DNA of 64,000 nt, from positions 32,001-96,000 of the forward strand of contig JAGXNO010000003.1 in NCBI GenBank assembly GCA_019894975.1. The letters are read 5' to 3'. Shown piece by piece: positions 1 through 62,605 of the stretch. Made by a program: the position numbers and the translations under genes. Source of the stretch: Promethearchaeota archaeon. Its GTDB lineage: Archaea > Asgardarchaeota > Lokiarchaeia > Sigyniarchaeales > SOKP01. The stretch's first letter is position 1, and every line of letters begins with the position of its first letter. The notes beneath the pieces are model-generated. The model was not told the origin of the DNA. It did not search any database and saw only the letters and a list, made by a program, of their open reading frames with translations.

Positions 1-379
1 TTAACTTACTTACGTAGTTTTCCAGAGCATTTACATTTATAATATTTGAAATTTCTGTATTACAATTACAAATAATAACCCCAACTCGACTTATTTCACT
101 TCCCTTTGAATCTAAATACTCGTCAATATCTTCTCCTGATAAAATCCTTTTATTAATATTTAATATCTTAAGGACTCGCTTTCCTTCTTCTGTAAGAAAA
201 TATGATTTCTTATCTTTATCTATTAAGGATCCAATTTTTTTGAGATGGAAGTTTAACTGACCAGTTGTTTCTAAACCAAGTCTTTCCATTAAATCTGTAT
301 ACGGAAGATAACCCTCATTTTCTAGAAGGAGTAATACCTTTCTTCTAAATGGATGAGATAATATTGAATATATATCCAT
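1..379 (-). CDS. ArsR-like winged-helix regulator fused to an HdrA N-terminal Fe-S-like domain (runs off left edge)
   Basis: Not in ORF track. Manual translation from ATG at 379: MDIYSILSHPFRRKVLLLLENEGYLPYTDLMERLGLETTGQLNFHLKKIGSLIDKDKKSYFLTEEGKRVLKIL...SRVGVIICNCNTEISNIINVNALENYVSKL; open to position 1. Confidence 0.8.
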   Translation of the reverse strand, partial: MDIYSILSHPFRRKVLLLLENEGYLPYTDLMERLGLETTGQLNFHLKKIGSLIDKDKKSYFLTEEGKRVLKILNINKRILSGEDIDEYLDSKGSEISRVGVIICNCNTEISNIINVNALENYVSKL

Positions 380-480
380 CTTCTAAATCCCTCTCTTTTT
401 CGCCATTTTCAAACAGGATATTTAATTTTAATCAAATTAAAAAAAAAATATATTTAGTTTTTAAACATTGTTTATATTAC

Positions 481-1638
481 TTAATCGTCGTCAATTTCTA
501 AAGCTAAAGGTGGAGATTTCCATGTAATCAATTTATTTTTCATAAAGTTTTCAAATCGTTCCATCTTTAATTGACAGAATTGAGAAATTTTCTCTTTCAT
601 TTTCTCTTTGCTTGTTACCTCCAATCTAAAAGATTTAATTACTCCTGCATTAATTACTTTCCTAATTATATCTATTCCTTTTTTAGTGCGAGTGATTACT
701 GTAGTAAATTTATCCGTAGAACCTAATCCCCCAAATGAGATATCAGCATAAATACTAGTGAAATCGCTACAAGCAAGACAAGCTTGACGCATATAATCAT
801 TTATACTTTCAAAGGGGATATGGATTATTTTTTGAGTGGCTCCTCTGTTTTTCAATTTAATGATTAAATCTTCTTTAATGTTTATTCTTTCTACATTTTC
901 GAATTTCAGATTGAATTCTTTTTCAAACTTCTCAATTCTGAGCTTATCAAAAAAGAAGTTCTCGTAACAAAATAATCCTAAACAAAGCTCAATATTCTCT
1001 GAAGGAATAATACCTAAACTTTGCATGCATCTAATAGTATAAATTTGGCACGGTGTTCCAACCACAGCTAATCTTTTAAATTTGTAATCTCTTAATTGGG
1101 GAAGTGAACTTGTATATGTGTGAAATTTCTGTAATTCATTTAGCTGTGGAGATAAATCTAATTTAAGTCCTGATGCCTCTATTAAATCTTTTTTATTTCT
1201 AGCAATTGTGGCTTCTCTGGAAAAGGCAGTTTTTGTTTTTGCAACGATAGCCCCATCAATTACTTTCTTCTCTAATAAATAGTTTATTATTGAGTTTACT
1301 ACACCTCCATCTGTTCCAATTTTTAAAAAATCTTTATCTGTGGCTTGACATGAATAAATATTGTCGATAAATCCAAAGGGCATGGATGAAAAACTTGTAA
1401 AATTATAAGTTTTCTTGAGATCACCGTCTAAAATATGAGTCTGTGGGCAAAGTAAATAACAAATTCCGCATTCAAGACATTTATCCTCATTTATATATTT
1501 TGGAGGTGAATTAGGATCCTTCATGCTAATTACATCATGTTCAATCGAATTACAAAAACTTACACAACCTCCACATTGTTGGCATATACCAGGTTCGTGA
1601 ACTTCTTTAATTAAATCCTTAAAATTCTTTATCTTCAT
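481..1638 (-). CDS. Coenzyme F420 hydrogenase/dehydrogenase beta subunit (FrhB/FdhB family) with N-terminal ferredoxin
   Basis: CQQCGGC and CLECGICYLLCP; DGGVV, VGTPCQ, GLFC, CLACSDFTSIYADISFGGLGS; paralogue of 61477..62589. Confidence 0.88.
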   Translation of the reverse strand: MKIKNFKDLIKEVHEPGICQQCGGCVSFCNSIEHDVISMKDPNSPPKYINEDKCLECGICYLLCPQTHILDGDLKKTYNFTSFSSMPFGFIDNIYSCQATDKDFLKIGTDGGVVNSIINYLLEKKVIDGAIVAKTKTAFSREATIARNKKDLIEASGLKLDLSPQLNELQKFHTYTSSLPQLRDYKFKRLAVVGTPCQIYTIRCMQSLGIIPSENIELCLGLFCYENFFFDKLRIEKFEKEFNLKFENVERINIKEDLIIKLKNRGATQKIIHIPFESINDYMRQACLACSDFTSIYADISFGGLGSTDKFTTVITRTKKGIDIIRKVINAGVIKSFRLEVTSKEKMKEKISQFCQLKMERFENFMKNKLITWKSPPLALEIDDD

Positions 1639-2054
1639 TATCAGAAATCACCAACTGTATTTATAATCTCGACATCCTAATGACTATTTTAGTAAATATT
1701 ATGATTACTATGATAAATATTATTGTCAAAATATATAAATATATCTTTTTTCGTATATTGATAAGTGAAAAACCTCAATTGAATATTAGAGAATGATAAG
1801 GAGTATATTGAATTTGGATCAGGGATAGGTCCGATTCGTTCATCAAATAAAAAATTGATAAGCAGATTTATCAAAATAACAAATATTTTTCTTATCAGAT
1901 TTTTTAAATTTCTCTCACCTCATAATTTTATCGTAATAGAGTATTAGAAAGTGATTATTATTTCATTTTTGGAAATTCAGTATTTTTTTCAAAATTGAAA
2001 ATAAAAAATTTTTATTAAAAAAATAACGGGTGATATTTTACAAAGGTGGATTAG

Positions 2055-4091
2055 ATGTCTGAAGTGCAGACCAATGTTAGAATAGGAGTGTATATCTGTA
2101 GATGAGGAGTAAATATTGGTGCAAGCATTGATTGCGATATTCTGAGAAATTATGCGGAACTACTCACGGGTGTCATGATTGCTAGAGTAAATGATTTTAC
2201 TTGCAGTGATCCAGGACAAACACTTATTAAGAATGATATTTTAGACTTAGATTTAAATCGGATTGTCGTTGCTGCTTGTACACCAAAAATTCATGAATCC
2301 ACCTACCGAGCAGTATTAATTGAAGCAGGATTAAGTCCATACTATTTTCAAATGGTTAATCTACGCGAGCATTGCTCTTTTATTCACTTAAATGATAAAA
2401 AGAATGCTACTGAAAAAGCTCTAAGATTACTACAAGCAGGAATAAATCGTGCACGGGAATTAGAAATTATCCCTTATAAAAAAATATCGATGGAAAGAGC
2501 TGTTTTAATTATTGGAGCGGGAATTGCGGGGATGAATGCTGCTTTAGATTTAGCAAATCAGGGGATTCCTGTTTATTTAGTCGAAAAAGAAGCCACAATT
2601 GGTGGAAAAATGGCACAATTAGACAGAATTTACCCCACCGATGATTGTGGGATATGAGTACTCGCACCTATTATGGTGAGTGCTTCAAAGCACCCAAATA
2701 TAAAATTATTTACCTATAGTGAAATTATTGAATTTAATGGGATCCCTGGTAATTATAATGTCAAAATACGAAGAAATCCTCGTTATATTAATGAAAAGAA
2801 ATGTACTGGTTGCGGGTTATGTACAATAAAATGCCCAATAAAAGTCCCGAATGAATTTAATAGAGGTATTGGAGAAAGGAGCGCAATTTACATACTTTTT
2901 CCCCAAGCGGTTCCAAAAATTGCTTTAATTGATAGAGATGTCTGTATAGAATGTAAAAATTGTCAAAAAGACTGTCCAGCAGAAGCTATTGAATTTGAAC
3001 AAGAACCTGAGTTTATCGATTTAACAGTTGGAGCAATCATTGTTGCTACTGGATGGGATGAATATCCAATTATGAAATATAACGATTATAAATATGGTAT
3101 TTATCCTAATGTAATTACACAACTAGAGTTAGAACGAATTTTAAGTCCAATTGGACCAACAGGGGGTCATCTTTATAGAATCTCTGATGGTAAAACCCCA
3201 AGAACAGTAGCTATGATTCAATGTGTTGGCTCGAGATCCTTAAAGGGGAACCCTTATTGTTCTGTAGTTTGTTGCAGTGTTGCTCTTAAAAACGCTCAAC
3301 TGCTAAAACAAGAATATCCGGGTATGGATATTGTTATTTTTTATATAGATGTTCGAGCATGGGATAAAGGGAATGAAGAATATTATAGAAAAGCAAGAGA
3401 AGCAGGTATAATGATGGTTCGGGGAAAAGTAGGAGATATACGAGAAGATCCTGAAACAAAAAAGCTAAAGATTCGAGCTTCTTCAACTTTAACTGGTGAA
3501 TTTATTACCTTGAACGCAGATTTAGTCGTTTTATCAACAGGTATGGTCCCTTCTAAAAATACAGCAAAAATCATTGATATTTTAGGATTAAATAAGGATT
3601 CGAATGGTTTTTTAAAAGAGATTCATGGATGCCTCAAACCTCAAGAGACAAATAATATGGGTATTTATATATGTGGATGTGCCGCTGGACCTAAAAATAT
3701 CCCTTATTCCGTATCAACAGCCTTAGCTGCAGCAAGTAAGGTATCAACATTACTTTCTAAAGATACAATAATTCAAGAATTAATTATTGCTGAAATAGAT
3801 GAAAATCTGTGCATGGGTTGTCATAGATGTGAAAAACTCTGTAATTATAAAGCAATCACAGTAAATGGAGAAAATTTTGCGGAAGTAGATGATTTAAAGT
3901 GTAGAGGTTGTGGCGTTTGTGTTTCATCATGTCCCGCTCGAGCAATCGATCTCAAATATTATAGAGAAAAACAATTTGTCGAAGAAATAAAAGGGATTTG
4001 TAGTACTGAAATTGAATTTAAGGAGGAATATTTTGAATCTATTGAAATCGTAATGAAAGAGATTGAAGCATTAGCTCCTCATAAAATTTAA
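2055..4091 (+). CDS. hdrA: Heterodisulfide reductase subunit A (HdrA), putative selenoprotein with two in-frame UGA (Sec) codons
   Basis: ATG 2055 after AAGGTG; frame continuous with ORFs 2175..2657 and 2673..4091 apart from TGA at 2103-2105 (RIGVYICR-U-GVNIG) and 2655-2657 (PTDDCGI-U-VLAP); both align to Cys in HdrA paralogues of this window; GAGIAG FAD motif, ferredoxin motifs. Confidence 0.9.
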
Positions 4092-4092
4092 A

Positions 4093-4161
4093 CCGAAAAA
4101 GAATGATCCTTTCAAAAAAATTATAGTTGAAAGGGAACTAACCCATAGCTAGGGTTTTCGG
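4093..4161 (+). promoter_or_regulatory. Candidate SECIS element in hdrA 3' UTR
   Basis: AUGA (4103-4106), 9-bp stem UCCUUUCAA/UUGAAAGGG, A-rich loop, GA at 4135-4136; directly after stop codon of the UGA-containing gene. Confidence 0.65.
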
Positions 4162-4550
4162 AATAATAATTTATCTTAGATTTAGAGTTTTGATGTATAG
4201 AAAATTTTTTCTAATTTTAGCATTTTGATACTAAGTTTAAATTATGATTAATATATAACTTCCCTTATAGGCAATTTAAGGGATTTCTAATTTCCTATTA
4301 TAAGTGTCATTTAATTATTATATTTTTTTATTTTTTTGTTAAAAAAATTGACAATTTTTTTTTTCATATCATATCTATTAATATGCTAGAAATGTGATTT
4401 TTAACTTTATACTGCCATAAAAGAAAAATTCACTAAAGTTATAGATTGACAATAAAGTTTGTCAAATCCAATAAAATTTTTGTTATCAGATTCTTTAAAT
4501 TCTGAGCTTTTGTTTATTTACTTGGAATAGTTAGATTTATTTATTATGAG

Positions 4551-46940: not shown

Positions 46941-49900
46941 CTATAAACCGTTTTTAACTTCCTCCTTTTCTAATAAATAAGAATCAATCATTGTGTTAAT
47001 TTGATCAAAATCATAGTGTTTTACCATAATAGCTCCAACAGGGCATGTAGCGGCGCATGTTCCGCATCCTTTACATACAGCAGCGTTAATGGATGATTTT
47101 GGTACAATAATACTAATATCTTCGAATTCTTTAGTTATTTCTATAAGACTAATAGCTTTATAGGGACATATATCCTCACATTTTCCACATCCGATACATT
47201 TTTCTTCCAAAACTTCAGCAACTAATCCAGAAGTTGTAATTTTATCTGAGCTTAGGAATCTACTTGCTCTACCTGCAGCTCCATTAGCTTGTGAAATTGA
47301 ATCCTGTAAATTTTTTGGCCATTGTGCACACCCACATAAGAATATTCCATCTGTAGCAAAATCTAAAGGTCTTAATTTAACATGTGCTTCTAAAAAGAAT
47401 CCATTCTTATCTAATGGAACTTTCAACATCATAGCTAATTCTTTTAGATTATCGGAAGGAATCATTGGTGTTGAAAGTATTAATAAATCTGTTTCAAATT
47501 CGACAGTATCTTTTAAATTTGTATCATATACTTTTAACTGATATTTTTCAGGACTTCCCTCACTCTTTGTCACCTCAGGAAGCTTATCTAAGTCGTATCT
47601 GAGAAAAATTGCGTCCTTTCGACGTTCACGGTAGTATTCCTCAAATTCTTTCTTAGCCATCTGTAGATCTCTGTAAATTACAACAACTTCTAATTCGGGT
47701 TTCAATTCTTTTAAGATTCTAACATTTTTTAGTGAAGTAGCGCAGCAAATATTAGAACAGTAAGTTATGCCTTCATTCTGACGAGCATTAACACATAATA
47801 TTATTGTTACTCGATTAATTTGGTCTAACCATGAGTTATCCTTATTTTGCAACTTCTGTTCTAATTCTAATTGAGTCATAATATTTTCATTCTTTTCTTG
47901 ATATCCAAAAAGACCTGTTGGTTTGAGTTCTTGTCCTCCGGTAGCGACAATAATGGTTCCAATTTTTACATTGTGGGATTCGTTATTTGAATCTTTAATT
48001 ACTACATCATAATTCCCTACATATCCTTTAATGTCTTCAAATTTAGCATTAAGAAATACTTGAATGTGGTTGTGCTTCTCAATTTTTTCCTTTGTTTCAT
48101 TTAATAATTCTAACGCATTTTTATGAACAGGATATAATACATTAAGAAATCTTAAATTCCCCCCTAATTCACTGTCTTTCTCTACAATAATAGTTTTAAA
48201 TCCCTGATTTGCGGTATTTAAAGCTGCAGTCATCCCAGATATACCTCCCCCAATAACTAATGATGTGTGAGTAATATCAACTTTCTCTTCTTTCTGAGGT
48301 TTCAATAATCTGGATTTAGCAATATGCATTCTGATTAAATCTTTAGATTTCTCTGTAGCAGCTTCTTTTTCCGTCATATGAACCCAGGAACACTGATCTC
48401 TGATATTTACTAGTTCAAATAAATATTTATTTAATCCTGCTTCTTGACAGGTTTCTTGAAATAACGATTCATGAGTTCTTGGGGTACAAGAAGCTACAAT
48501 AAACCTGTTTAAATTGTGTTCAGCAATTAATTCCTTAATTCTAATTTGAGAATCTGAAGAACAGGAATAAAGATTACTTTCACATACTACAACATTTGGA
48601 AGGCCTTTTACATATTCTACAACCCTAGGAACATCTACATAATTTCCTATATTTATCCCACAGTGACAGACCATAACACCGATTCTTGGCTCATCTGTAA
48701 TTTTTATTACTTTTTCAGGAACATCAAACACTTTTTCCTTCATAAGAGTGTATTTAACAGAACTTAGCAAATCTGCTATTTGGGCTGCTACTCCACTGGC
48801 ATCTGCAACTGTTTCAGGAATATCCATTGGTCCCTGACAGAATCCACATAAGTACACTCCCTCTCTTGTAGATTTTAGTTTATCAAAATAAGAAGCTTCT
48901 TGGAAAAAATCATATTTATCCAACCCAATGTCTAAAGCTTTTCCTAATTCTTTAACACCCTTAGATGGAACAAGCGGTGATGCTAACACTACAAGGTTTG
49001 CTCTAAAATCTTTGAATTCCCCCGTTTTAAGATCTTCATATCTTAAAATTAAATCATTAGTTTCAAGATCTTCTTCAATTGTACTTATCTTAGACTGAAA
49101 GTATTTTACCCCATATTCTTCTTGGGCTCTTTGAATAAATTCATAAAAGTTTTTACCGTAAGCTCGTATATCGTGCCGAAATACATAACAATCTGAATTA
49201 TCTGAATGTTCTTGAGTGATAATTGCTTGTTTTGCTGTATAAGTGCAACAAACGCTTGAACAAAAAGGTACATTTTCATGAAGATCTCGAGAACCCGCAC
49301 ACTGGACAAAAGCAATTACTTCAGGTTCCTTACCATCACTTAATCGCTTTACATGACCCTCAAATGGTCCAGATGCACATAAAATCCTTTCATATTCAAG
49401 TGCACTTACAACATTCTCGAATCGATACCCCCATCTAGAGGATAACTCTTCAGCAGGCATTTCATATCCCGTTGCGACTACTACAGCACCAATATTAATT
49501 TCAAATTCTTCAGGTTTCTGTTCAAAGTCTATTGCATCCGCAGTACAAACTTTTTTGCATACTTGACAGACTCCCTTCTTTAAATATAGACACATCTCTG
49601 AATCAATTAAGTAGATAGGAGGTACTGCTTGAGGAAAAGGAATATACACTGATTTTATTTTCCCAATATTCATTTCAAAAGGATTTGGAGCTAAAATTTT
49701 TGGACATTTATTTGCACAATCCCCACATCCCTTACATTTAGTTTCATCAACATATCGAGGTTTTTTCAAAATTTTTGCTGTAAAATCCCCTGGCTGGCCT
49801 TCAAGTTGAAGAACTTCATGATAAGTCATCAATTCAACATTAGGATTGCGAAAGACTTCAACCATTTTGGGAGCAAGGATACATAGTGAACAGTCCAAAG

Positions 49901-50048
49901 TAGGGAAAGTCTTATCTAATTGAGCCATCCTTCCTCCAATCGAAGGAGATTTTTCCACTAAATAGACTTTAAATCCTAGTTCTGTAAGATCAAGAGATAT
50001 CTGAATTCCAGCTATTCCTCCTCCAATTACCAAAACTGAACCTTCCAT
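46941..50048 (-). CDS. hdrA: Large HdrA-like flavoprotein with two FAD-binding modules
   Basis: GGGIAG twice, PTLDCSLC, CHCGINIG, ASCTPRTHE, EAHVKLRP, C-terminal ferredoxin. Confidence 0.9.
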   Translation of the reverse strand: MEGSVLVIGGGIAGIQISLDLTELGFKVYLVEKSPSIGGRMAQLDKTFPTLDCSLCILAPKMVEVFRNPNVELMTYHEVLQLEGQPGDFTAKILKKPRYVDETKCKGCGDCANKCPKILAPNPFEMNIGKIKSVYIPFPQAVPPIYLIDSEMCLYLKKGVCQVCKKVCTADAIDFEQKPEEFEINIGAVVVATGYEMPAEELSSRWGYRFENVVSALEYERILCASGPFEGHVKRLSDGKEPEVIAFVQCAGSRDLHENVPFCSSVCCTYTAKQAIITQEHSDNSDCYVFRHDIRAYGKNFYEFIQRAQEEYGVKYFQSKISTIEEDLETNDLILRYEDLKTGEFKDFRANLVVLASPLVPSKGVKELGKALDIGLDKYDFFQEASYFDKLKSTREGVYLCGFCQGPMDIPETVADASGVAAQIADLLSSVKYTLMKEKVFDVPEKVIKITDEPRIGVMVCHCGINIGNYVDVPRVVEYVKGLPNVVVCESNLYSCSSDSQIRIKELIAEHNLNRFIVASCTPRTHESLFQETCQEAGLNKYLFELVNIRDQCSWVHMTEKEAATEKSKDLIRMHIAKSRLLKPQKEEKVDITHTSLVIGGGISGMTAALNTANQGFKTIIVEKDSELGGNLRFLNVLYPVHKNALELLNETKEKIEKHNHIQVFLNAKFEDIKGYVGNYDVVIKDSNNESHNVKIGTIIVATGGQELKPTGLFGYQEKNENIMTQLELEQKLQNKDNSWLDQINRVTIILCVNARQNEGITYCSNICCATSLKNVRILKELKPELEVVVIYRDLQMAKKEFEEYYRERRKDAIFLRYDLDKLPEVTKSEGSPEKYQLKVYDTNLKDTVEFETDLLILSTPMIPSDNLKELAMMLKVPLDKNGFFLEAHVKLRPLDFATDGIFLCGCAQWPKNLQDSISQANGAAGRASRFLSSDKITTSGLVAEVLEEKCIGCGKCEDICPYKAISLIEITKEFEDISIIVPKSSINAAVCKGCGTCAATCPVGAIMVKHYDFDQINTMIDSYLLEKEEVKNGL

Positions 50049-51328
50049 TATTTTTCTACCTCCACCTTTTCCTTAGAATCCACAATACTTATTAGGTCTA
50101 CTAAAAATTCCGAAAAATCAACTATTTCTATTGAAGAGATATCTTCATAGTCATTTTGTAAACAAGATAAATGAATTTTACATTTTGGGCATGATGTGAC
50201 CATTATATCTCCTGCATCTTTTGCTTCTAAGAGTCGCTTATATCGTAATGCTTTTGAGCGATCATTACAGTTCATCCAAGAGCTCACACCACAGCATAGT
50301 GCTTCAGTCTTATTATGTGCCATTTCATTGAATTTATACCCCAGTTCTTTTAAATGTGAAAATATTTCACGTACATTATCTATAATATTACTCTCCTTAG
50401 GTAGAAACCTACTTAATCTGCATGGATCATGATAAGTGAATGGAATTGCTTGTTCTTGCTCTTTTGGATTCTTAAATTCAATTTTGTTATCTTTCCATTT
50501 CTCATAAACATATTCGATTAAATGTTTCACCACAAATTTTTCATTGAAATCTTCAAATATATCTTGATAGTCTACTTTAAATGTTCGATAACATTCAGCA
50601 CAAGCAGTGACGATTGTTTTAGCTCCAGTTTGTTCTAATCTATGGATGTTTTTCTTTGCTAAATCAATGAAGGCATTAAGTTTTCCTTGTCCCCAATATA
50701 AATCATGCCCACAGCAAATTTCATCTTGAAGAACTGCAATTGGTTCATTTTCAATTTGACAAAGTATTTTTAACGTACTTTCTGCTATTGAGTCTGAGTT
50801 TTCGAACTCAAAATTAAAATATGGTAAACACCCAACATAATATAAGATATTACCTTGATCTGAAATTTTGCATTCCTTTGGAACCCATTCAAGAGATCTC
50901 TCTGGTTTAATATGTGGTTCACTCATGATTTCTGAAATAGTTGTATATACTCCTTTATGGGCTATATACTCATCAGGATTTTGTCCTTTAGAAGTTCTCA
51001 TTTTATACTTTGCCATCCTTACAATATCAGCAAAATTTATTCCTTCAGGACAGTTCTGGAGACATGCATTACATGTAAGACAATCCCATAAAATACCACT
51101 ATCAATAATTTTTTCTTCAAATCCTTCCAAGATCATTTGAATTATTCTACTTGGTTCAAAACTTTGAACTCGACTTAGTTGACATACACCACTACAACGA
51201 ACACATTGGTAACATCTATATAATAATTTTTTTATATCAGGTTCATAAATTTTTTCAAGATAATGTTTATTATTATCGCTAGATTTTTTTGAGTCGTCTA
51301 CTTTCTTAATCTCAGTAATTACATTCAC
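50048..51328 (-). CDS. HdrD-like (HdrC-HdrB fusion) CCG Fe-S protein
   Basis: CYQCVRCSGVC, CLTCNACLQNCP, CCG, YHDPC, CPKC. Confidence 0.88.
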   Translation of the reverse strand: MNVITEIKKVDDSKKSSDNNKHYLEKIYEPDIKKLLYRCYQCVRCSGVCQLSRVQSFEPSRIIQMILEGFEEKIIDSGILWDCLTCNACLQNCPEGINFADIVRMAKYKMRTSKGQNPDEYIAHKGVYTTISEIMSEPHIKPERSLEWVPKECKISDQGNILYYVGCLPYFNFEFENSDSIAESTLKILCQIENEPIAVLQDEICCGHDLYWGQGKLNAFIDLAKKNIHRLEQTGAKTIVTACAECYRTFKVDYQDIFEDFNEKFVVKHLIEYVYEKWKDNKIEFKNPKEQEQAIPFTYHDPCRLSRFLPKESNIIDNVREIFSHLKELGYKFNEMAHNKTEALCCGVSSWMNCNDRSKALRYKRLLEAKDAGDIMVTSCPKCKIHLSCLQNDYEDISSIEIVDFSEFLVDLISIVDSKEKVEVEK

Positions 51329-51551
51329 TTTTTTTAATTAATTTAGAACTTAATAATATGTAACTATAATGATTAGGGAAAAAAGGGAAACAATTTATTT
51401 TTTCTGATTAGTTTTCATAATTCCACTAAGTCTTAATTGAAAAGGAAATAAAAAATGAAAATACCATGTTCTTTTCTATTTCTATATTAGAGTAATTATG
51501 GATTTTCTTCAATTTTATTAAAAATTCAATAATATCTAATAAAAGAATATT

Positions 51552-53072
51552 TTGGTTGAATATTATATGAAAACAACAGAAATAATTGAAACTTCGGTTG
51601 GGAACATTAAAGGATATGAAGATGGGGTTCTTAAGGTTTTTAAGGGGATTCCCTATGCAGAACGGCCTATTGGAGAATTGAGATTTAAGCCGCCCGTTCC
51701 ACGAAAAAAATGGTTTGGTGTTTTTGATGCTTTGGATTACAGCCCTATTTGTGTTCAAACATCGGACTTTCCGGGATTAATTTTACCACCTATACCACAA
51801 AGTGAAGCAGATTCTTTAACTCTGAATATCTGGACCCATGGTACTGACAATAAAAAAAGGCCCGTAATGGTAAGAATTCATGGGGGTGGTTTGACAACAG
51901 GAAGTGGGAGATTGCCTAATGGATTTAAATTAGCTCGGAGAGGAGAAGTCGTAGTAGTTACAATCAATTATCGTTTAGGTGCTTTAGGATTTAGTGAAAT
52001 GCAAGGCATTGAAAGTAATATTGGTATACTTGATCAGATAGAAGCCTTGAAATGGATTCAAAAGAATATTGAACTTTTTGGGGGTGATCCAAACTGTGTT
52101 ACGATATTTGGTATCAGTGCGGGAGGTTGGTCTGTTTCAACATTGATGGCAATACCCGAAGCAAAAGGGCTTTTTAATCGAGTGATTGCGCAAAGCGGAG
52201 CAGTGCATCCTTTAAGTTTTCAAACCGAAAAAGGTGTGGATAGAACTAATAGGATACTAAAAACTCTTAAAATTAAGAAGGGAGATATCAAATCCTTACA
52301 AAGAATTACAGCATATGAGTTAGCAAAAACCTATACAAGTATTGCAAATGAGGATGGGTTAGCTCAAATTCCTTGGGTTCTAAATACGCCCCCCTATATA
52401 GATGGAAAATCTATTCCTGAGCATCCACTCAGGATGATAAAAAAGGGAGTTGCGTCCGATATTGATCTAATGGTAGGAAGCACATTAAATGAGTCTGTTT
52501 TATGGCGAATTCTAATAGGAGCATCTGAAAAACTGGATATAGATAAAGTAAAAAATAGAATTGTACAAGCAACAAAATATTTAGGTCTTGATGAAAAAAA
52601 AGGTTTGGAACTATTTGAAGTGTATAAAGGCAAGGGAGATCCTGAAGCAGTATTGAATGCTTTTTTTACTGATCTTGAATTTAGGATCTCTGCAATAAGA
52701 TTAGCGGAAGAACAATCAGTACATAACCAAAATACATACATGTATCTCTTCACTTACCTCCTTAAATTTCAAGGAAAAGAAGTTGGAGCTGTTCATGGTG
52801 GAGATGCAGGATTTATGTATGGAACCCTCGATTATCCAAATATCCTTGGTCAGATTGAAAATTCTGAAGAAGCTCAACTTTTAAGCGAAAAAATGATGGA
52901 CAGCTGGATTGCTTTTGCAAAAACCGGAAATCCTAACCACGATGGAATTGAAGAATGGCAAAAATACGAAAAAAACAATAGAAAAACAATGATGTTAGGA
53001 ATAGAAACAACTTCTGTCGATGACCCATTGGCAAAACAACGTGTAGCCTGGTCCGACATCATGAAAATATAG
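51552..53072 (+). CDS. Type-B carboxylesterase (likely start ATG 51567)
   Basis: FKGIPYA, HGGG, NYRLG, FGGDP, GISAGG, H in AVHGGD. Confidence 0.93.
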   Translation: MVEYYMKTTEIIETSVGNIKGYEDGVLKVFKGIPYAERPIGELRFKPPVPRKKWFGVFDALDYSPICVQTSDFPGLILPPIPQSEADSLTLNIWTHGTDNKKRPVMVRIHGGGLTTGSGRLPNGFKLARRGEVVVVTINYRLGALGFSEMQGIESNIGILDQIEALKWIQKNIELFGGDPNCVTIFGISAGGWSVSTLMAIPEAKGLFNRVIAQSGAVHPLSFQTEKGVDRTNRILKTLKIKKGDIKSLQRITAYELAKTYTSIANEDGLAQIPWVLNTPPYIDGKSIPEHPLRMIKKGVASDIDLMVGSTLNESVLWRILIGASEKLDIDKVKNRIVQATKYLGLDEKKGLELFEVYKGKGDPEAVLNAFFTDLEFRISAIRLAEEQSVHNQNTYMYLFTYLLKFQGKEVGAVHGGDAGFMYGTLDYPNILGQIENSEEAQLLSEKMMDSWIAFAKTGNPNHDGIEEWQKYEKNNRKTMMLGIETTSVDDPLAKQRVAWSDIMKI

Positions 53073-53106
53073 AATCTTAGAAATTTTCGAAACATCTTTT
53101 TTTTAT

Positions 53107-56100
53107 TTATATTATAAGTGCCTTTATAGAAGCCTCAATTTGCTCAAAATCGTAATGCTTAATTGAGATTGCCCCCACAGGACAGCTTACCGCGCAAGTT
53201 CCACATCCTTTACAGAGACTTGAATTGACAGAAGACTTTTTTATAGGAAGACTTACCTCTTCAAATTCTTTAAGGCTATCTATTATTTCTATTGCATTGT
53301 AAGCACATGTCTCCTCGCAAGTCCCACACCCAATACACATATCTTGATTTACTTCAGCAATTAATCCTGACGATGTAATCTCTCCCGCACTTAAAAATCT
53401 ACTTGCTCTTCCCGCAGCACCATTTGCTTGCGATATTGAATCCTGTATATTTTTTGGCCACTGAGCACATCCACATAAGAATATTCCCTCAGTAGCAAAA
53501 TCTAATGGTCTTAATTTTACATGTGCTTCTAGAAAAAAACCATTTTTATCTAAAGGAACCTTGAGCATTTTTGCTAACCCATCTAAATTGTCAGCGGGAA
53601 CCATAGGAGTCGATAGAACTAATAAATCTGTGTTAAATTTGATATCATCTTGTAAATTAGTATCAAAAACTTTAATTTCAAACTTACTTGTTCCTTCATC
53701 TATCTCTTTAATCACCGGTGGACTCTCTAAATCATATCTCAAAAAAATAGCATCTTTTCTTCGCTCACGGTAATATCTTTCAAATTCTTTTTTTGCCATT
53801 TGAAGATCTCGATAGAGAACGATTAATTTGAGGTCCTGCTTTAGCTCTTTTAGGATGTTAATATTTTTTATAGCACTTTCGCAACAAATATTTGAGCAAT
53901 ATGTTATTCCGCTCTCCTGCCTAGCATTAACGCATAATAACGTTGTAATATGATTCAGATTATCAAGCCATGAATTATCCTCATCTTTAAATTTCTGTTC
54001 GAGTTGCAGTTGTGTAATTACATTATGGTTCGTATACTTATAGTCAAAAAATTCATTAGGTGTTAATTCTTGGCCGCCAGTAGCAACAATAATAGTACCA
54101 ATTTTTAATTCATGAACATTTTTATCTGAATCGAGCAATGCAACATCATAATTACCAATATATCCCGTAATATCTTTAAATTCAGAATTTAAAAAGATTT
54201 GAATGTTTTTATTATTCTTAACTTTTTCTATGGTTTCGTTTAATAAGATTGAAGCATCTTCTTGAGTGGGAAATAACATATTTAGGTGCCTTAGATTTCC
54301 ACCTAGGTTTTTCTCCTTTTCTATAAGATAAGTATTAAATCCTTGATTAGCAATGTTCAAAGCAGCCGTCATTCCAGATATCCCTCCACCAATTACCATT
54401 GTAGTTTGAGTGATTTTCAATTTCTTTTCTTCTTGTGGTCTTAACAACCTTGATTTAGCAATACCCATTCTTATTAAATCAATTGCCTTTTCAGTAGCAA
54501 GCTCTTTTTCTGTCATATGTACCCATGAACATTGATCACGGATATTTACCATATCAAATAAGTATTTATTTAATCCCGCTTCTTGACAGGTTTCTTGGAA
54601 TAATGACTCGTGTGTTCTTGGTGTACATGATGCTACAATAAATCTATTTAAATCAAATTCACTTATTACTTCCTTTATTCGCTCTTGAGAATCTGAGCTA
54701 CAAGAATATAGATTGTCTTCACAGAAGGCTACATTAGGTAACGTTTTTATTTGTTCAATAACTTGAGGGATATCAACATATTTCCCTATATTAATTCCAC
54801 AATGACAGATTAATACTCCAATTCTTGGATCATCAGTATCTTTTACTATTTTTTCGGGTATTCCAATAATTTTCTCTTTTGTTTCAGTAAATTTAAAGGA
54901 ATTAAGCAATGTAGCTATTTGTGAGGCAACTCCACTGGCATCAGCAACAGTTTCTGGTATATCCATTGGACCTTGACAAAAACCAGCCAAAAAAATTCCT
55001 TCTTTGGAAGACAGTGATTTATTGAAGTATGATCTTTCCTTAAAGAAATTATAATCATCTAATTCGATATCTAAAACTTTAGAAAATTCTTTGGTCCCAG
55101 CCGAAGGAACTAGAGGTGAAGCTAGTACGACAAGATTTGCCTTAAAATCTTTAAATTCACCTGTTTTTAGATCCTCATAGTGAATGATTAAATCATTAGA
55201 TTCTGGATCTTCTATTATTCTACTAACCTTTGTCTGGAAATATTTTATACCATATTCTTCTTGAGCTCTCTGAGTAAACTCATAAAAATTTTTTCCATAA
55301 GCTCTAATATCATGTCTAAATACAAAACATTTTGAGTTTTCAGAGTGTTCTCGTGTTATAATCGCTTCTTTTGCAGTATACATGCAACATACACTGGAAC
55401 AATAGGGGATTCCCTCACGTAAGTCTCTAGATCCCGCACATTGAATAAATGCGATTATTTCTGGTTCTTCCTCATCGCTAGGTCGTAAAATATGACCTCC
55501 AAATGGCCCAGAGGCAGACAGCATTCGTTCGTATTCCAAGGCATTTACCACATTTTTATACTTATAACCCCATCGTGAGCTTAATTCTTCCCCAAGTACA
55601 TCATATCCCGTAGCAACAACAATAGCTCCAACGTTTAATTTGATTTCTTGAGGTTTTTGTTCATAATCTATTGCTTCTACTTTACAAACCTTTTCACAAA
55701 CTCCGCATACTCCCTTAGTTAGTTTTAAACATAGCTCAGAGTCAATTAAGTACACAGGAGGTACTGCTTGAGGAAATGGAATGTACACAGATTTTCTTTT
55801 ACCAAGATTCATATCAAAGATATTAGGTGATTCAATCTTTGGACATTTGGTAGCACAATCACCACACCCTTTACATTTAGTCTCGTCAATATAACGAGGT
55901 TTCTTAAGGACTGTAACCACAAAATTCCCAGGCTTACCAGATACTTTTTGAACTTCATGATAGGTCATTAATTCAATATTAGGATTTCTAAATACCTCTA
56001 CCATTTTAGGAGCTAAAATACATAGACTGCAATCATTTGTAGGAAAGGTTTTATCAAGTTGAGCCATCCTTCCTCCGATTGAAGGTGTTTTTTCTACTAA

Positions 56101-56187
56101 ATAAACGTTAAATCCTAATTCAGATAAATCTAAAGATGTTTGTATCCCTGCAATCCCACCACCAATAACTAACACTGATCCTTCCAT
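53107..56187 (-). CDS. hdrA: Large HdrA-like flavoprotein, close paralogue of 46941..50048
   Basis: Same motifs and near-identical N-terminus MEGSVLVIGGGIAGIQ. Confidence 0.9.
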   Translation of the reverse strand: MEGSVLVIGGGIAGIQTSLDLSELGFNVYLVEKTPSIGGRMAQLDKTFPTNDCSLCILAPKMVEVFRNPNIELMTYHEVQKVSGKPGNFVVTVLKKPRYIDETKCKGCGDCATKCPKIESPNIFDMNLGKRKSVYIPFPQAVPPVYLIDSELCLKLTKGVCGVCEKVCKVEAIDYEQKPQEIKLNVGAIVVATGYDVLGEELSSRWGYKYKNVVNALEYERMLSASGPFGGHILRPSDEEEPEIIAFIQCAGSRDLREGIPYCSSVCCMYTAKEAIITREHSENSKCFVFRHDIRAYGKNFYEFTQRAQEEYGIKYFQTKVSRIIEDPESNDLIIHYEDLKTGEFKDFKANLVVLASPLVPSAGTKEFSKVLDIELDDYNFFKERSYFNKSLSSKEGIFLAGFCQGPMDIPETVADASGVASQIATLLNSFKFTETKEKIIGIPEKIVKDTDDPRIGVLICHCGINIGKYVDIPQVIEQIKTLPNVAFCEDNLYSCSSDSQERIKEVISEFDLNRFIVASCTPRTHESLFQETCQEAGLNKYLFDMVNIRDQCSWVHMTEKELATEKAIDLIRMGIAKSRLLRPQEEKKLKITQTTMVIGGGISGMTAALNIANQGFNTYLIEKEKNLGGNLRHLNMLFPTQEDASILLNETIEKVKNNKNIQIFLNSEFKDITGYIGNYDVALLDSDKNVHELKIGTIIVATGGQELTPNEFFDYKYTNHNVITQLQLEQKFKDEDNSWLDNLNHITTLLCVNARQESGITYCSNICCESAIKNINILKELKQDLKLIVLYRDLQMAKKEFERYYRERRKDAIFLRYDLESPPVIKEIDEGTSKFEIKVFDTNLQDDIKFNTDLLVLSTPMVPADNLDGLAKMLKVPLDKNGFFLEAHVKLRPLDFATEGIFLCGCAQWPKNIQDSISQANGAAGRASRFLSAGEITSSGLIAEVNQDMCIGCGTCEETCAYNAIEIIDSLKEFEEVSLPIKKSSVNSSLCKGCGTCAVSCPVGAISIKHYDFEQIEASIKALII

Positions 56188-56290
56188 TATTTAGCACTTC
56201 TAATTTTTTTTAATAAGGTTTAGTTTACAGAATCTTTTTTCCCGTTGAATAAAAAATAAGGATATGAAATTATATAAACATTTTTATAAT

Positions 56291-56399
56291 GAATGATCAG
56301 AATCTAACATTTTTTGCTTTGTGAATGATCAGTCCCAAATATTTGTCACTTTTATATTTTCGTAATCAACCATTCCGTTACTTTTGTATTTTCGTAATC
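56291..56399. promoter_or_regulatory. Two pairs of direct repeats (32-bp spacing) upstream of hdrA
   Basis: GAATGATCAG at 56291 and 56323; GT(C/T)ACTTTT(A/G)TATTTTCGTAATC at 56345 and 56377. Confidence 0.5.
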
Positions 56400-56703
56400 G
56401 TTTATTTTGTTTGTTAATGTTATATTATTAGGAAGAATAGATCCAGATTGATAACTTATTTTGGGTTTTAAGATGGATTCAAGCATGATCACAATTCTTT
56501 CTTACCTATTATCTGCATTATGTTTATTGGTGATAATAAAAAATGGATTAATGATCCATATCTCTCACACAAATCCAAATACTTATTAAGATTGATCAAA
56601 GATCAAAGATATAATAGAGAAAATACTATTCTTTGAAAAAAAATGATTTTAGAATAAAAATTTTTTTTGGAACTATTAATAAAAATTGAGATAAATTCTT
56701 TAT

Positions 56704-57135
56704 TTATTTTAGTTTTAAAGGTCCTTGTTCTTTTATTTGATTTGTAAATTCTGTAATTACCTCTGAAAATCTCTTCCCTTCAGAGGCACTAACCCATTCA
56801 AGTCTAAACCTTTTTTTAAGATTAAATATTTTTAAAACATCCTGAAAACGTTCAAATCTATCTCGTGCAAACTCGTTACCTTTTAAGTAGTGACAATCTC
56901 CAATATGACACCCAGTTACAATAACTCCATCAATGCCATCTTTAAATGCTTCTAAAATGAAGGCAGGATCTACTCTCCCAGAGCACATTACCCGTACTAT
57001 CCTAATTGTAGCAGGGTATTGAAATCGTGAGACTCCCGCCAAATCTGCTCCCGCATAACTGCACCAATTGCAACAAAAACATAAAATTTTTGGGTGAAAT
57101 TCCTTTTGACTTACTTTTTTTTTTGACTTAGACAT
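56704..57135 (-). CDS. mvhD: MvhD [2Fe-2S] subunit (Cys form)
   Basis: CCNWCSYAGADLAG, GCHIGDCHY. Confidence 0.93.
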   Translation of the reverse strand: MSKSKKKVSQKEFHPKILCFCCNWCSYAGADLAGVSRFQYPATIRIVRVMCSGRVDPAFILEAFKDGIDGVIVTGCHIGDCHYLKGNEFARDRFERFQDVLKIFNLKKRFRLEWVSASEGKRFSEVITEFTNQIKEQGPLKLK

Positions 57136-57159
57136 AAGTTACTACCTTAGAATTTAACT

Positions 57160-60100: not shown

Positions 60101-60195
60101 AGGTAAACTTTATATCCAGAATCTGCTAGATCTATAGAGGTTTGAATACCTGCAATTCCACCACCAATAACTAAAACAGCTCCAACTTTTTCCAT
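57160..60195 (-). CDS. hdrA: Large HdrA-like flavoprotein with two FAD-binding modules
   Basis: PTNDCAIC, CHCGINIG, YCSSVCC, YCSRICC, ferredoxins. Confidence 0.9.
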   Translation of the reverse strand: MEKVGAVLVIGGGIAGIQTSIDLADSGYKVYLAESTTSIGGVMSQLDKTFPTNDCAICILAPKLVETGRHENIDILINTSIEKIDGEPGNFNVELTQGTLRLDQSKCTGCGLCAQECPIEAIDFFNEKLSNKAAISVKFPQAVPLVFSINKEKCIGCGMCKGICKAKAIDYEIQDKEISLNVGAVVVATGFDEYDPTPLTQYGYGKYLNVITSIEFERILSASGPHSGLIIRPSDGTIPKKIAFLHCIGSRDRSKGIEYCSSVCCMYTTKEAVIAKEHMEIIKPTIFTMDIRAYGKDFDKYIERARDEYGVRYIRRRISYIKENPNSKDLRVYYENENGKIVEEIFNLVVLSVGMQPNQKAKELAQVLNFELNDYGFCKTETFSPVETSKPGIYVCGAFAAPKDIPETVIEASAAAGRVNVLLSEARNKLISKKELPNELDVSSLPPRIGVFICHCGINIGGVVDVPSVVEYVKTLPDVVYAEHNLYTCSADTQTNIKEKIEKNQLNRVIVASCTPRTHESLFQATIREVGLNKYLFEMVNIRDQCSWVHMHEPEKATAKSKDLLRMSVAKASQLIPLQEQEIAVIDKGLIIGGGVSGITAALNLASQGFEIFLIEKEDSLGGIANNLYKTLENDDIQDYLRNLIKNVESNQLIHVFKEARINSISGYIGNFSTNISHGSIKKSIDLDHGIIIVATGAKEYQPKEYKFGQDKRIITQTNFEKDLFTTDKIKGLKSIVMIQCVGSRNEEHSYCSRICCSEAIKNALKAKEINPNIEIVVLYRDIRTYGFKEKYYNQARDNNIIFIRFDKTNPPELNLKNKQLNLRVNNPDLGELIINPDLIVLSTGLEAPIKENEELAKMLKVPLNEDKFFLEAHVKLRPIDFATDGIYLCGCAHSPKDLRESIAQSNGAAAQAVKILSAEKIVTSGLVATVIEENCIGCGNCQDVCQFNAIELIEKERVFEDFTMATKKSHINPALCKGCGTCGAQCPNSTIVIKHFGFEQINAMISALLT

Positions 60196-61472: not shown

Positions 61473-61476
61473 TACC

Positions 61477-62589: not shown

Positions 62590-62605
62590 ATTTTTAATAT
62601 TTACA

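What the first reader, a model, noticed from the sequence alone, without database searches (positions are those of the whole stretch)
2055..4091. Hidden HdrA selenoprotein with two UGA codons
Seen: the two annotated ORFs and 40 further upstream codons form one frame (679 codons incl. stop) broken only by TGA at 2103 and 2655. Both TGAs fall exactly on Cys of the three paralogues in this window (ICHCG -> ICRUG; DCAIC/DCSLC -> DCGIU), which is very unlikely for random nonsense mutations. Known: methanococcal HdrA carries Sec at the second (CxxU) site, and Lokiarchaeota encode selenoproteins (Mariotti et al. 2016). The additional N-terminal CxU is the less familiar part; it would make Sec a ligand of a second Fe-S cluster (inference).
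Basis: partly seen in the sequence, partly recalled or inferred. Interest (0 to 1): 0.85.

Follow-up and report, generated by a model that had tools for sequence, protein, structure and literature searches.

The report
Two-selenocysteine HdrA with its own SECIS
The two 'broken' ORFs are one intact heterodisulfide-reductase A gene of a Loki-type Asgard archaeon whose two in-frame UGA codons encode selenocysteine; this kind of gene was described in 2016, but this copy has lost the usual partner gene vhuD and carries the insertion signal (SECIS) itself.

Summary
Observation confirmed. Window 2055-4091 (+) is one 678-codon frame, broken only by TGA at 2103 and 2655. It matches solved HdrA structures end to end (E 3e-217). 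TGA-2 falls on the residue that is Sec197 in Methanococcus maripaludis HdrA. TGA-1 falls on the second Cys of the invariant N-terminal CxCG motif.

The genome (Promethearchaeota, i.e. Lokiarchaeia) holds tRNA-Sec, PSTK, SepSecS, SelB/EFSec and two Sec-containing SelD genes. A Loki-type SECIS (AUGA, 9-bp stem, 11-nt A-rich loop) starts 11 nt after the stop and has compensatory changes.

In 80 species-representative loci, TGA is kept at site 201 in 80 and at site 17 in 79. dN/dS is 0.11-0.16 in every segment. It is a real selenoprotein gene.

Multi-Sec Loki HdrA is already published (Mariotti 2016), so the kind is known. Two points seem new. This clade (33 loci) has no downstream vhuD and owns its SECIS, contrary to the published 'always neighbours'. 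Across 100 genes Sec in the N-terminal third occurs only at {17, 50, 75, 201}, never at Cys15 or Cys198.

This suggests that both Sec residues serve one site, the N-terminal shuttle cluster and its contact with the partner's flavin-side CxxU, rather than a second, separate cluster (inferred). Another reader of this scan had already flagged the same stretch.

The parts
2045..2049 (+). Shine-Dalgarno-like GGTGG, 5 nt before the start codon
   Evidence: Sequence. All 15 congeneric orthologues start at the same ATG.
2055..4091 (+). hdrA coding sequence, 678 codons plus TAA, read with UGA = Sec at codons 17 and 201
   Evidence: colinear with solved HdrA (9sfi_A E 3e-217, 5odc_A E 9e-210). dN/dS is 0.11-0.16 in all segments.
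2103..2105 (+). UGA-1 = Sec17, in the motif C15-R-U17-G of the N-terminal Fe-S domain
   Evidence: Aligns to the second Cys of CHCG/CYCG in 5odc_A and 9sfi_A and in all Cys paralogues. TGA in 79/80 loci.
2655..2657 (+). UGA-2 = Sec201, canonical HdrA Sec site (C198-G-I-U201) beside the FAD domain
   Evidence: Aligns to X (Sec197) of 9sfi_A and Cys197 of 5odc_A. TGA in 80/80 loci.
2055..2459 (+). N-terminal Fe-S domain (residues 1-135) with invariant Cys15, Sec17, Cys50, Cys75
   Evidence: AF2 model pLDDT 84.7. Z 18.5-20.7 to the N-domains of 8rvy_A, 7bkd_A and 5odc_A. Cys invariance.
4093..4161 (+). SECIS element. Helix I 4093-4099/4155-4161; AUGA core 4103-4106; helix II 4107-4115/4127-4135; 11-nt A-rich apical loop 4116-4126; 3' core AA 4136-4137; side hairpin 4142-4144/4152-4154
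   Evidence: 96% of cells paired in 15 orthologues, 4 pairs with compensatory changes, 28-65% paired when slid. Covariance model R1 scores 102 bits here and also finds the SECIS after vhuD of two paralogues.
481..1638 (-). FrhB-like Fe-S flavoprotein gene, divergent upstream neighbour and possible partner subunit
   Evidence: Pfam FrhB_FdhB_N/C plus Fer4. A FrhB-like gene matches in 39 of the 48 clade-A locus entries; these overlap (the same loci were fetched twice), and 6 of the matches are only 30-34% identical.

Best explanation
Window 2055-4091 is one functional hdrA gene. It encodes the flavin/iron-sulfur subunit A of a heterodisulfide-reductase-type electron-bifurcating complex, in a Lokiarchaeial (Promethearchaeota) genome. 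Both in-frame UGA codons are decoded as selenocysteine.

Decoding uses the archaeal/eukaryotic-type pathway: tRNA-Sec, PSTK, SepSecS, SelD and SelB/EFSec, all present in the genome. It is directed by a single eukaryote-like 'lokiSECIS' that begins 11 nt after the TAA stop and acts on UGAs 2.0 kb and 1.45 kb upstream.

The gene belongs to a subfamily that arose inside the usual hdrA-vhuD-SECIS tandem family by duplication and loss of vhuD, with the SECIS kept directly behind hdrA.

Function (inferred): Sec201 is the canonical flavin-side CxxU residue. Sec17 sits in the CxUG motif of the mobile N-terminal domain that carries the [4Fe-4S] 'shuttle' cluster (HA3/A3). The two selenols therefore most likely act at one site across the HdrA dimer interface: the contact between the shuttle cluster and the partner's CxxU next to FAD. 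They would act either as cluster ligands or as an exchangeable or redox-active Se pair, tuning low-potential electron transfer.
For: Shown by tools:
- Gene identity: full-length colinear match to solved HdrA. U201 falls on Sec197 of M. maripaludis, and all ferredoxin, FAD and CC motifs are present.
- Sec machinery: tRNA-Sec at 62.6 bits with anticodon TCA, next to SepSecS (482 bits) and SelB (248 bits; 4ac9 E 3e-84). PSTK matches 3a4l at E 4e-24. Two selD genes each carry a TGA.
- TGA conservation: kept in 79/80 and 80/80 loci, never TAA/TAG. Invariant in 15 congeners at dS about 0.7.
- Selection: dN/dS is 0.12 (codons 1-16), 0.11 (18-200) and 0.14 (202-678).
- SECIS: a 9-bp stem and 11-nt loop starting AAAAA, as published for lokiSECIS. 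It has covariation support and genome-wide specificity, with 5 hits of which 4 lie behind hdrA or vhuD.
- Code: TGA is an ordinary stop for 5 of 38 long ORFs in the window.
- Origin: the clade without vhuD is monophyletic (SH-aLRT 99) and nested in the vhuD-linked clade.

For the one-site inference:
- Residue 197 of the partner protomer ligates the N-terminal cluster (PMC9012536).
- Cryo-EM papers place the CxxC/CxxU pair between the mobile-arm clusters and FAD.
- In 100 Sec-HdrA genes, Sec in the N-terminal third occurs only at 17, 50, 75 and 201, never at Cys15 or Cys198.
Against: There is no direct evidence of translation or selenium incorporation. Which N-domain cysteines ligate the cluster could not be read, because no coordinates were available and the primary structure paper is not held. 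The domain has four invariant Cys/Sec (15, 17, 50, 75) and residue 201' makes five candidates for four ligand positions. So Sec17 may be a spare, non-ligand residue. Recent cryo-EM work describes the CxxC pair as binding an unknown ligand or forming a Se-S bond rather than ligating the cluster. No hdrBC or vhuD lies next to this gene, so its complex partners are unknown.
Confidence: 0.9

Rival explanations
1. Pseudogene: two nonsense mutations have inactivated a former Cys-type hdrA.
For: Standard ORF calling splits the gene. The genome has many intact Cys-type HdrA paralogues that could compensate.
Against: The same two TGAs sit at the same Cys columns in 79-80 of 80 species-level loci and in three other paralogues. 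dN/dS is 0.11-0.16 before, between and after the TGAs. The SECIS is conserved and the Sec machinery is complete.
Confidence: 0.01
2. A naturally split HdrA: the TGAs are true stops, and the N-terminal Fe-S domain and the flavoprotein core are made as separate polypeptides. Split and fused HdrA forms exist in ANME archaea and in this genome.
For: HdrA halves with complementary N-domain and Cys197 exist (PMC9012536). An ATG lies 5 codons after TGA-2.
Against: The stop would always have to be TGA, always exactly on a ligand-type Cys codon, and never TAA/TAG in 160 sites. Codons 1-16 before TGA-1 and codons 202-206 between TGA-2 and the next ATG are under the same purifying selection. No ribosome-binding site precedes 2673. 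The canonical site is proven Sec in M. maripaludis.
Confidence: 0.02
3. UGA is read through as Cys, Trp or another standard residue (a leaky stop or partial code change) rather than as Sec.
For: Cys insertion at Sec codons is known under selenium limitation in other systems (general knowledge, not tested here).
Against: TGA ends ordinary genes in the window. A dedicated tRNA-Sec with anticodon TCA, SelB and a SECIS are present. In-frame TGAs are confined to known selenoprotein families: HdrA, VhuD and SelD.
Confidence: 0.03
4. Same gene and same decoding, but Sec17 is not a ligand of the N-terminal [4Fe-4S]. Instead it is the spare redox-active residue of the CxUG motif, analogous to the 'additional' Cys16 of MvhD (Sec in VhuD). 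It would form a transient Se-Se/Se-S relay with Sec201'/Cys198' when the mobile arm docks.
For: The first Sec of VhuD aligns to M. marburgensis MvhD Cys16. PMC13580544 calls that residue an additional conserved cysteine facing HdrA Cys202/205, which correspond to our 198/201. The HdrA N-domain has one Cys more than the three it needs if 197' is a ligand. The minimal Sec pair in this clade is exactly {17, 201}. Se-S-like density was reported at Sec197.
Against: Homology of the HdrA N-domain to MvhD was not demonstrable here. hhalign gave no significant match. Foldseek gave only weak hits (E 3e-3 to 8e-3, TM 0.4), none of them in the VIA top 50. Cys15, not residue 17, is the position that never becomes Sec, which fits Cys15 being the odd one out equally well.
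Confidence: 0.35

Closest known systems
Multi-Sec HdrA of Lokiarchaeota (Mariotti et al. 2016, PMC4989117; Asgard survey PMC11227280)
   Same: Same phylum. HdrA has the canonical Sec near residue 200 plus further Sec at conserved Cys positions, up to four per protein. One eukaryote-like lokiSECIS (AUGA, 9-bp stem, 11-nt A-rich loop; the AUGA_AA core variant) serves UGAs about 2 kb away. The stop codon is UAA/UAG.
   Different: Both papers state that Loki/Asgard hdrA is always followed by vhuD/frhD and shares the SECIS behind it. Here, and in 33 of 80 related loci, there is no vhuD and the SECIS starts -1 to +23 nt from the hdrA stop. The 2016 paper predates the structures and says the Sec sites are not cluster-coordinating.
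[quoted passage not shown]
   Same: The sequence match is E 3e-217 over residues 7-651. Sec lies at the identical CxxU position and the domain order is the same.
   Different: The methanogen protein has Cys at the N-terminal CxCG site. It uses the archaeal-type SECIS and sits in an hdrA-vhuD operon. Our organism is not a methanogen, and the physiological substrate of its Hdr is unknown.
Cys-type HdrA of Methanothermococcus thermolithotrophicus / Methanothermobacter marburgensis (PDB 5ODC, 8RVU, 9SW2)
   Same: All cofactor motifs are shared. Cys197 (or Cys205) and the four N-domain cysteines are conserved.
   Different: They have no Sec. They are the structural reference for deciding what residues 17 and 201 touch.
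Eukaryotic type-I SECIS
   Same: It has the AUGA...(G/A)A kink-turn core, unpaired As in the apical loop, a 3'-UTR location and action at a distance on several UGAs.
   Different: No SBP2 is known in Asgard archaea. Here the element is enclosed by a helix I and carries a small conserved side hairpin, giving a three-way junction. No Rfam family reached its gathering score in the window.

Membership tests
HdrA (heterodisulfide reductase subunit A) | Full-length colinear similarity to solved HdrA | tested here: met
   9sfi_A E 3e-217 (7-651), 5odc_A E 9e-210, 8rvu_a E 3e-195, 7bkb_A E 4e-158.
HdrA (heterodisulfide reductase subunit A) | FAD-binding thioredoxin-reductase-like domain with a GxGxxG Rossmann motif | tested here: met
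   Pyr_redox_2, NAD_binding_8, DAO and FAD_oxidored at residues 149-187. The motif IIGAGIAG is seen.
HdrA (heterodisulfide reductase subunit A) | Inserted and C-terminal 2x[4Fe-4S] ferredoxin domains | tested here: met
   four CxxCxxCxxxC(P) motifs at 250-260, 297-307, 586-596 and 615-625, with Fer4 family hits.
HdrA (heterodisulfide reductase subunit A) | N-terminal Fe-S domain with conserved cysteines, plus Cys/Sec197 in a CxxC motif | tested here: met
   C15, U17, C50, C75 and C198-x-x-U201. The model matches HdrA N-domains at Z 18.5-20.7.
HdrA (heterodisulfide reductase subunit A) | Works with HdrBC (CCG-domain subunits), usually encoded nearby | tested here: not met
   No CCG-domain gene lies within about 2 kb on either side. 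HdrD-like Fer4+CCG genes exist elsewhere in the window at 50048-51328 and 60195-61472, beside Cys-type HdrA genes. This concerns the partner, not the identity of the subunit.
Selenoprotein gene (archaeal/eukaryotic Sec system) | In-frame UGA aligned to Cys or Sec in homologues and conserved as UGA | tested here: met
Selenoprotein gene (archaeal/eukaryotic Sec system) | SECIS element in the 3' UTR | tested here: met
   lokiSECIS architecture, covariation, and model hits behind other Sec genes.
Selenoprotein gene (archaeal/eukaryotic Sec system) | Genome encodes tRNA-Sec, PSTK, SepSecS, SPS and SelB/EFSec | tested here: met
   PSTK is below the NCBIfam equivalog cut-off (125 vs 290 bits), but its best PDB match is Ser-tRNA(Sec) kinase over the full length.
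Selenoprotein gene (archaeal/eukaryotic Sec system) | Selenium actually incorporated into the protein | not testable with these tools
   Needs 75Se labelling or mass spectrometry.
Loki hdrA-vhuD tandem sharing one SECIS (Mariotti 2016) | vhuD directly downstream on the same strand, with the SECIS only behind vhuD | tested here: not met
   no ORF in any frame of 4092-4550. The SECIS starts at 4093. The same holds in 31 of 33 clade-A loci; in the other two it could not be read. The paralogue on C110 does have vhuD and then the SECIS.
MvhD/VhuD-like fold for the HdrA N-terminal domain | Detectable sequence or structural homology to MvhD | tested here: inconclusive
   hhalign E 0.043 over 21 columns only. 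No Pfam family. Foldseek E 3e-3 to 8e-3, TM about 0.4 to MvhD chains. MvhD is not among the top 50 VIA rows.

The most novel reading that the evidence does not exclude
Sec17 and Sec201' are both selenolate ligands, or an exchangeable ligand pair, of the same N-terminal [4Fe-4S] 'shuttle' cluster (HA3) of an electron-bifurcating HdrA dimer. The neighbouring 4-Sec paralogue (U17, U50, U75, U201; just past the window end) would then carry a naturally all-selenocysteine-ligated [4Fe-4S] cluster. That would make Lokiarchaeial HdrA a natural series of [4Fe-4S] clusters with 1 to 4 Se ligands, used to tune the low-potential branch of flavin-based bifurcation.
Probability: 0.3. Interest if true: 0.65.

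Novelty: new member of a known kind. Interest (0 to 1): 0.35.

Why it matters
For annotation, this gene, three paralogues in the genome and well over a hundred orthologues in related genomes are split or truncated by standard gene callers. Asgard Hdr inventories and metabolic reconstructions that rely on called proteins therefore miss or miscount them.

For Sec biology, a widespread hdrA clade with its own SECIS and no vhuD corrects the published generalisation that Asgard hdrA always borrows the vhuD SECIS. It also gives a clean natural example of one SECIS serving two UGAs 1.45 and 2.0 kb upstream in a monocistronic context.

For bioenergetics, Sec is restricted to {17, 50, 75, 201} and never found at Cys15 or Cys198. 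This is a comparative-genomic pointer to which residues act together at the still unresolved contact between the mobile shuttle cluster, the CxxC pair and the bifurcating flavin. Three recent structural papers leave that question open.

Tried and rejected
- Rfam at gathering thresholds found nothing in the window, so no curated SECIS family matches.
- MFE folding of the 3' region alone gave a z-score of only -1.6. Support for the structure comes from covariation instead.
- hhalign of HdrA N-domains against VhuD gave no significant alignment.
- Pfam at E<=10 found no family for the N-domain.
- Foldseek and VIA-align on the N-domain model gave only weak, non-specific similarity to MvhD among generic flavodoxin-like folds. 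The idea that U17 is the homologue of MvhD Cys16 therefore stays a motif-level analogy.
- I tried to find which N-domain cysteines ligate the cluster. The primary structure paper (Science 2017) is not held, and the other papers searched do not list the ligands.
- The supplements of Mariotti 2016 are not held. That position 17 is one of their five Sec positions is therefore inferred, from their count and our census, not read.
- No RNA holder was listed among public runs, so nothing can be said on expression.
- Complex prediction was not used. Its output has no residue-level contacts, and a pass would only reflect likeness to solved HdrA dimers.
- A global TGA reassignment was considered and rejected.

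Full report
**Observation**

The sequence is as described. An ATG at 2055, preceded by GGTGG, opens a frame of 678 sense or TGA codons that ends in TAA at 4089-4091. The only interruptions are TGA at 2103-2105 (codon 17) and 2655-2657 (codon 201). Standard ORF calling returns only two fragments, 2175-2657 and 2673-4091.

Read through, the product hits the FAD/NAD Rossmann families and four ferredoxin-type motifs in Pfam. It aligns colinearly over residues 7-651 with solved HdrA subunits: 9sfi_A at E 3e-217, 5odc_A at E 9e-210, plus 8rvu and 7bkb.

Codon 201 aligns with the X (selenocysteine 197) of the M. maripaludis chain and with Cys197 of M. thermolithotrophicus. Codon 17 aligns with the second Cys of the CHCG/CYCG motif.

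**Is it more than chance?**

A tblastn search of the product against the window's own 3.9-Mb assembly finds more than 20 HdrA-like segments. Four full-length genes have TGA at both sites:
- this one;
- C110:25092-27098 (74% identical, 2 TGA);
- C103:8901-10874 (3 TGA: 17, 50, 201);
- C109:96712-98631, just past the window end (4 TGA: 17, 50, 75, 201).

All other paralogues have TGT/TGC at these sites.

In 40 related genomes nearly every close homologue carries 2-5 in-frame TGAs. In 80 loci from species-representative genomes, TGA is present at site 201 in 80/80 and at site 17 in 79/80 (one GGA). TAA or TAG never occurs there.

Among 15 congeneric orthologues both TGAs are invariant while dS is about 0.7. 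dN/dS is 0.12 for codons 1-16, 0.16 for codons 1-40 (upstream of any callable ORF), 0.11 for 18-200 and 0.14 for 202-678.

Contigs from three DNA runs of two studies cover both sites. They show two haplotypes with 37 differences across 2585-3011, and no variant is listed at either TGA, though the table was truncated.

**Sec machinery**

Record titles of the closest loci name Promethearchaeota/Promethearchaeia, the current NCBI name for Lokiarchaeota. The genome holds:
- a tRNA-Sec (Rfam 62.6 bits; ARAGORN anticodon TCA);
- SepSecS beside it (482 bits);
- SelB/EFSec 5 kb away (248 bits; best PDB match M. maripaludis SelB, E 3e-84);
- a PSTK, below the NCBIfam equivalog cut-off but matching M. 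jannaschii Ser-tRNA(Sec) kinase over its full length at E 4e-24;
- two selD genes, each with its own in-frame TGA.

TGA also ends 5 of 38 ordinary long ORFs in the window, so the code is not globally changed.

**SECIS**

Eleven nucleotides after the stop lies the element AUGA, then a 9-bp stem, an 11-nt loop that begins AAAAA, the other stem strand and AA. This is exactly the '9-bp stem and 11-nt apical loop' lokiSECIS of Mariotti et al. 2016, with the AUGA_AA core variant noted by the 2024 Asgard survey.

It is enclosed by a 7-bp helix I and followed by a small CCC/GGG hairpin. On an alignment of the 15 orthologous 3' ends, 96% of cells pair and four pairs show changes on both sides. Sliding the partners drops pairing to 28-65%.

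A covariance model built from these 15 elements hits the genome only five times:
- here (102 bits);
- behind a short hdrA fragment on C74;
- behind vhuD of the C110 paralogue;
- behind vhuD of the 4-Sec paralogue;
- behind a small UGA-containing ORF on C98.

**What differs from the published picture**

Multi-Sec HdrA in Lokiarchaeota is known. [quoted passage not shown] Both that paper and the 2024 survey state that Asgard hdrA is always followed by vhuD/frhD and borrows the single SECIS behind it.

Here no ORF exists in any frame between 4092 and 4550. The 80 loci fall into two groups:

| Group | Loci | Identity to this gene | vhuD | SECIS position relative to hdrA stop |
|---|---|---|---|---|
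| This gene's group | 33 | at least 77% | absent | -1 to +23 nt (seen in 31 of 33) |
| vhuD-linked group | 47 | 70-76% | present | 373-460 nt (seen in 40 of 47) |

In five loci of the first group, the UGA of the AUGA core serves as the stop codon.

In a maximum-likelihood tree the vhuD-less group is one clade (SH-aLRT 99), nested inside the vhuD-linked group. All Sec-HdrA genes form one clade apart from the Cys paralogues. The parsimonious history is duplication of an hdrA-vhuD-SECIS unit and deletion of vhuD.

A FrhB-like gene is the conserved upstream neighbour. No hdrBC lies nearby. HdrD-like and FrhB-like genes elsewhere in the window accompany Cys-type fused HdrA genes.

**What the two Sec residues do (inference)**

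The literature points to one site rather than two.
- PMC9012536, citing the crystal structure, states that the N-terminal [4Fe-4S] is bound by N-domain cysteines plus Cys197 of the other HdrA protomer. Residue 197 corresponds to our 201.
- The 2026 M. maripaludis cryo-EM paper sees density interpreted as a Cys-Sec197 bond between the N-domain cluster and FAD.
- The 2026 M. marburgensis paper describes Cys202/Cys205 (our 198/201) as a dynamic pair. It binds an unknown ligand and faces the mobile arm, together with the 'additional' Cys16 of MvhD.
- I found that VhuD's first Sec aligns exactly with that MvhD Cys16. Known archaeal Sec residues therefore already sit on both sides of this contact.

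The HdrA N-domain has four invariant Cys/Sec positions (15, 17, 50, 75). That is one more than needed if 197' is a ligand.

In the 100 Sec-HdrA genes tabulated for these sites, Sec in the N-terminal third occurs only at 17, 50, 75 and 201. The combinations range from {201} alone to all four. Sec never occurs at 15 or 198.

This fits either of two models:
- {17, 50, 75, 201'} is the ligand set of the shuttle cluster;
- 17 and 201' form an exchangeable Se pair beside it.

I could not decide between them. No coordinates were available, and homology of the N-domain to MvhD was inconclusive.

**Verdict**

This is a real and strongly conserved selenoprotein gene of an already described kind. Its modest new content is the vhuD-less, self-SECIS subfamily and the restricted set of Sec positions. 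Another reader of this scan had flagged the same stretch and its SECIS. I tested both notes here and they agree with my reading.

Noticed in passing
G000:C98:164590-164991 (outside the window): The SECIS model R1 hits at 42.8 bits behind a small ORF. The ORF has an N-terminal membrane helix, an acidic run and the motif C-D-I-F-U (one in-frame TGA), and it ends inside the AUGA core. It is a candidate small membrane-anchored selenoprotein.
   Followed up: partly
G000:C109:96163-98631, i.e. just beyond the window end (about 64163-66631 in window numbering): An hdrA paralogue with four TGAs (sites 17, 50, 75, 201), followed by a two-Sec vhuD and a SECIS. The same 4-Sec pattern is conserved in 11 of 12 congeneric orthologues examined (10 with exactly these four Sec, one with a fifth at 619); the twelfth has Cys at site 50.
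   Followed up: partly
L028/L062 (sites 260+297); L030, L066, L069, L075, L100 (406/407); L100, L143 (622/619): Some orthologues carry extra Sec at Fe-S ligand cysteines. Sites 260 and 297 are, by the usual 2x[4Fe-4S] ferredoxin wiring, ligands of the same cluster of the inserted domain. Sites 406/407 are the CC motif of the thioredoxin-reductase-domain cluster.
   Followed up: no
L028, L034, L070, L073, L081: In these orthologues the normal TAA is lost, and the reading frame runs 5 codons on to the UGA inside the SECIS AUGA core. That UGA then serves as the stop codon, as reported for Loki VhuU.1.
   Followed up: no
L031/L114 codon 112; L061 codon 17: One orthologue has TGA at a Leu position (TTA to TGA), which may be an error or a pseudogene. 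Another has GGA (Gly) instead of TGA at site 17, the only exception in 80 loci.
   Followed up: no
window 46941-63928 (- strand): Two (perhaps three) repeated Cys-type operons carry a ~1,000-aa fused double HdrA. Its first half has Cys201 but no N-domain, and its second half has the N-domain but no Cys201. Two of them are directly preceded by an HdrD-like Fer4+CCG gene, and two FrhB-like genes lie upstream (61477-63928). This is the same complementarity described for ANME and Moorella HdrA fusions.
   Followed up: partly
G000:C108:10686-12773 (outside the window): Two adjacent selD (selenophosphate synthetase) genes, each with one in-frame TGA.
   Followed up: no
L074 and others: One contig carrying this Loki hdrA is deposited in a MAG labelled Candidatus Nanopelagicaceae bacterium, which is probably mis-binned. 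The tree places its gene 0.025 substitutions per site from that of L072, inside the vhuD-less clade. Other closely related loci carry Odin-, Thor-, Hod- or Hermodarchaeota labels.
   Followed up: no
window 1-1638 (- strand) and 1639-2054: The Sec-hdrA is transcribed divergently from the FrhB-like gene. Downstream of that gene lies a winged-helix-HdrA-MvhD fusion gene described in earlier notes of this scan. The 416-nt intergenic region has AT-rich inverted repeats (1849-1904, 1981-2025). I did not test whether they are the operator described there.
   Followed up: no
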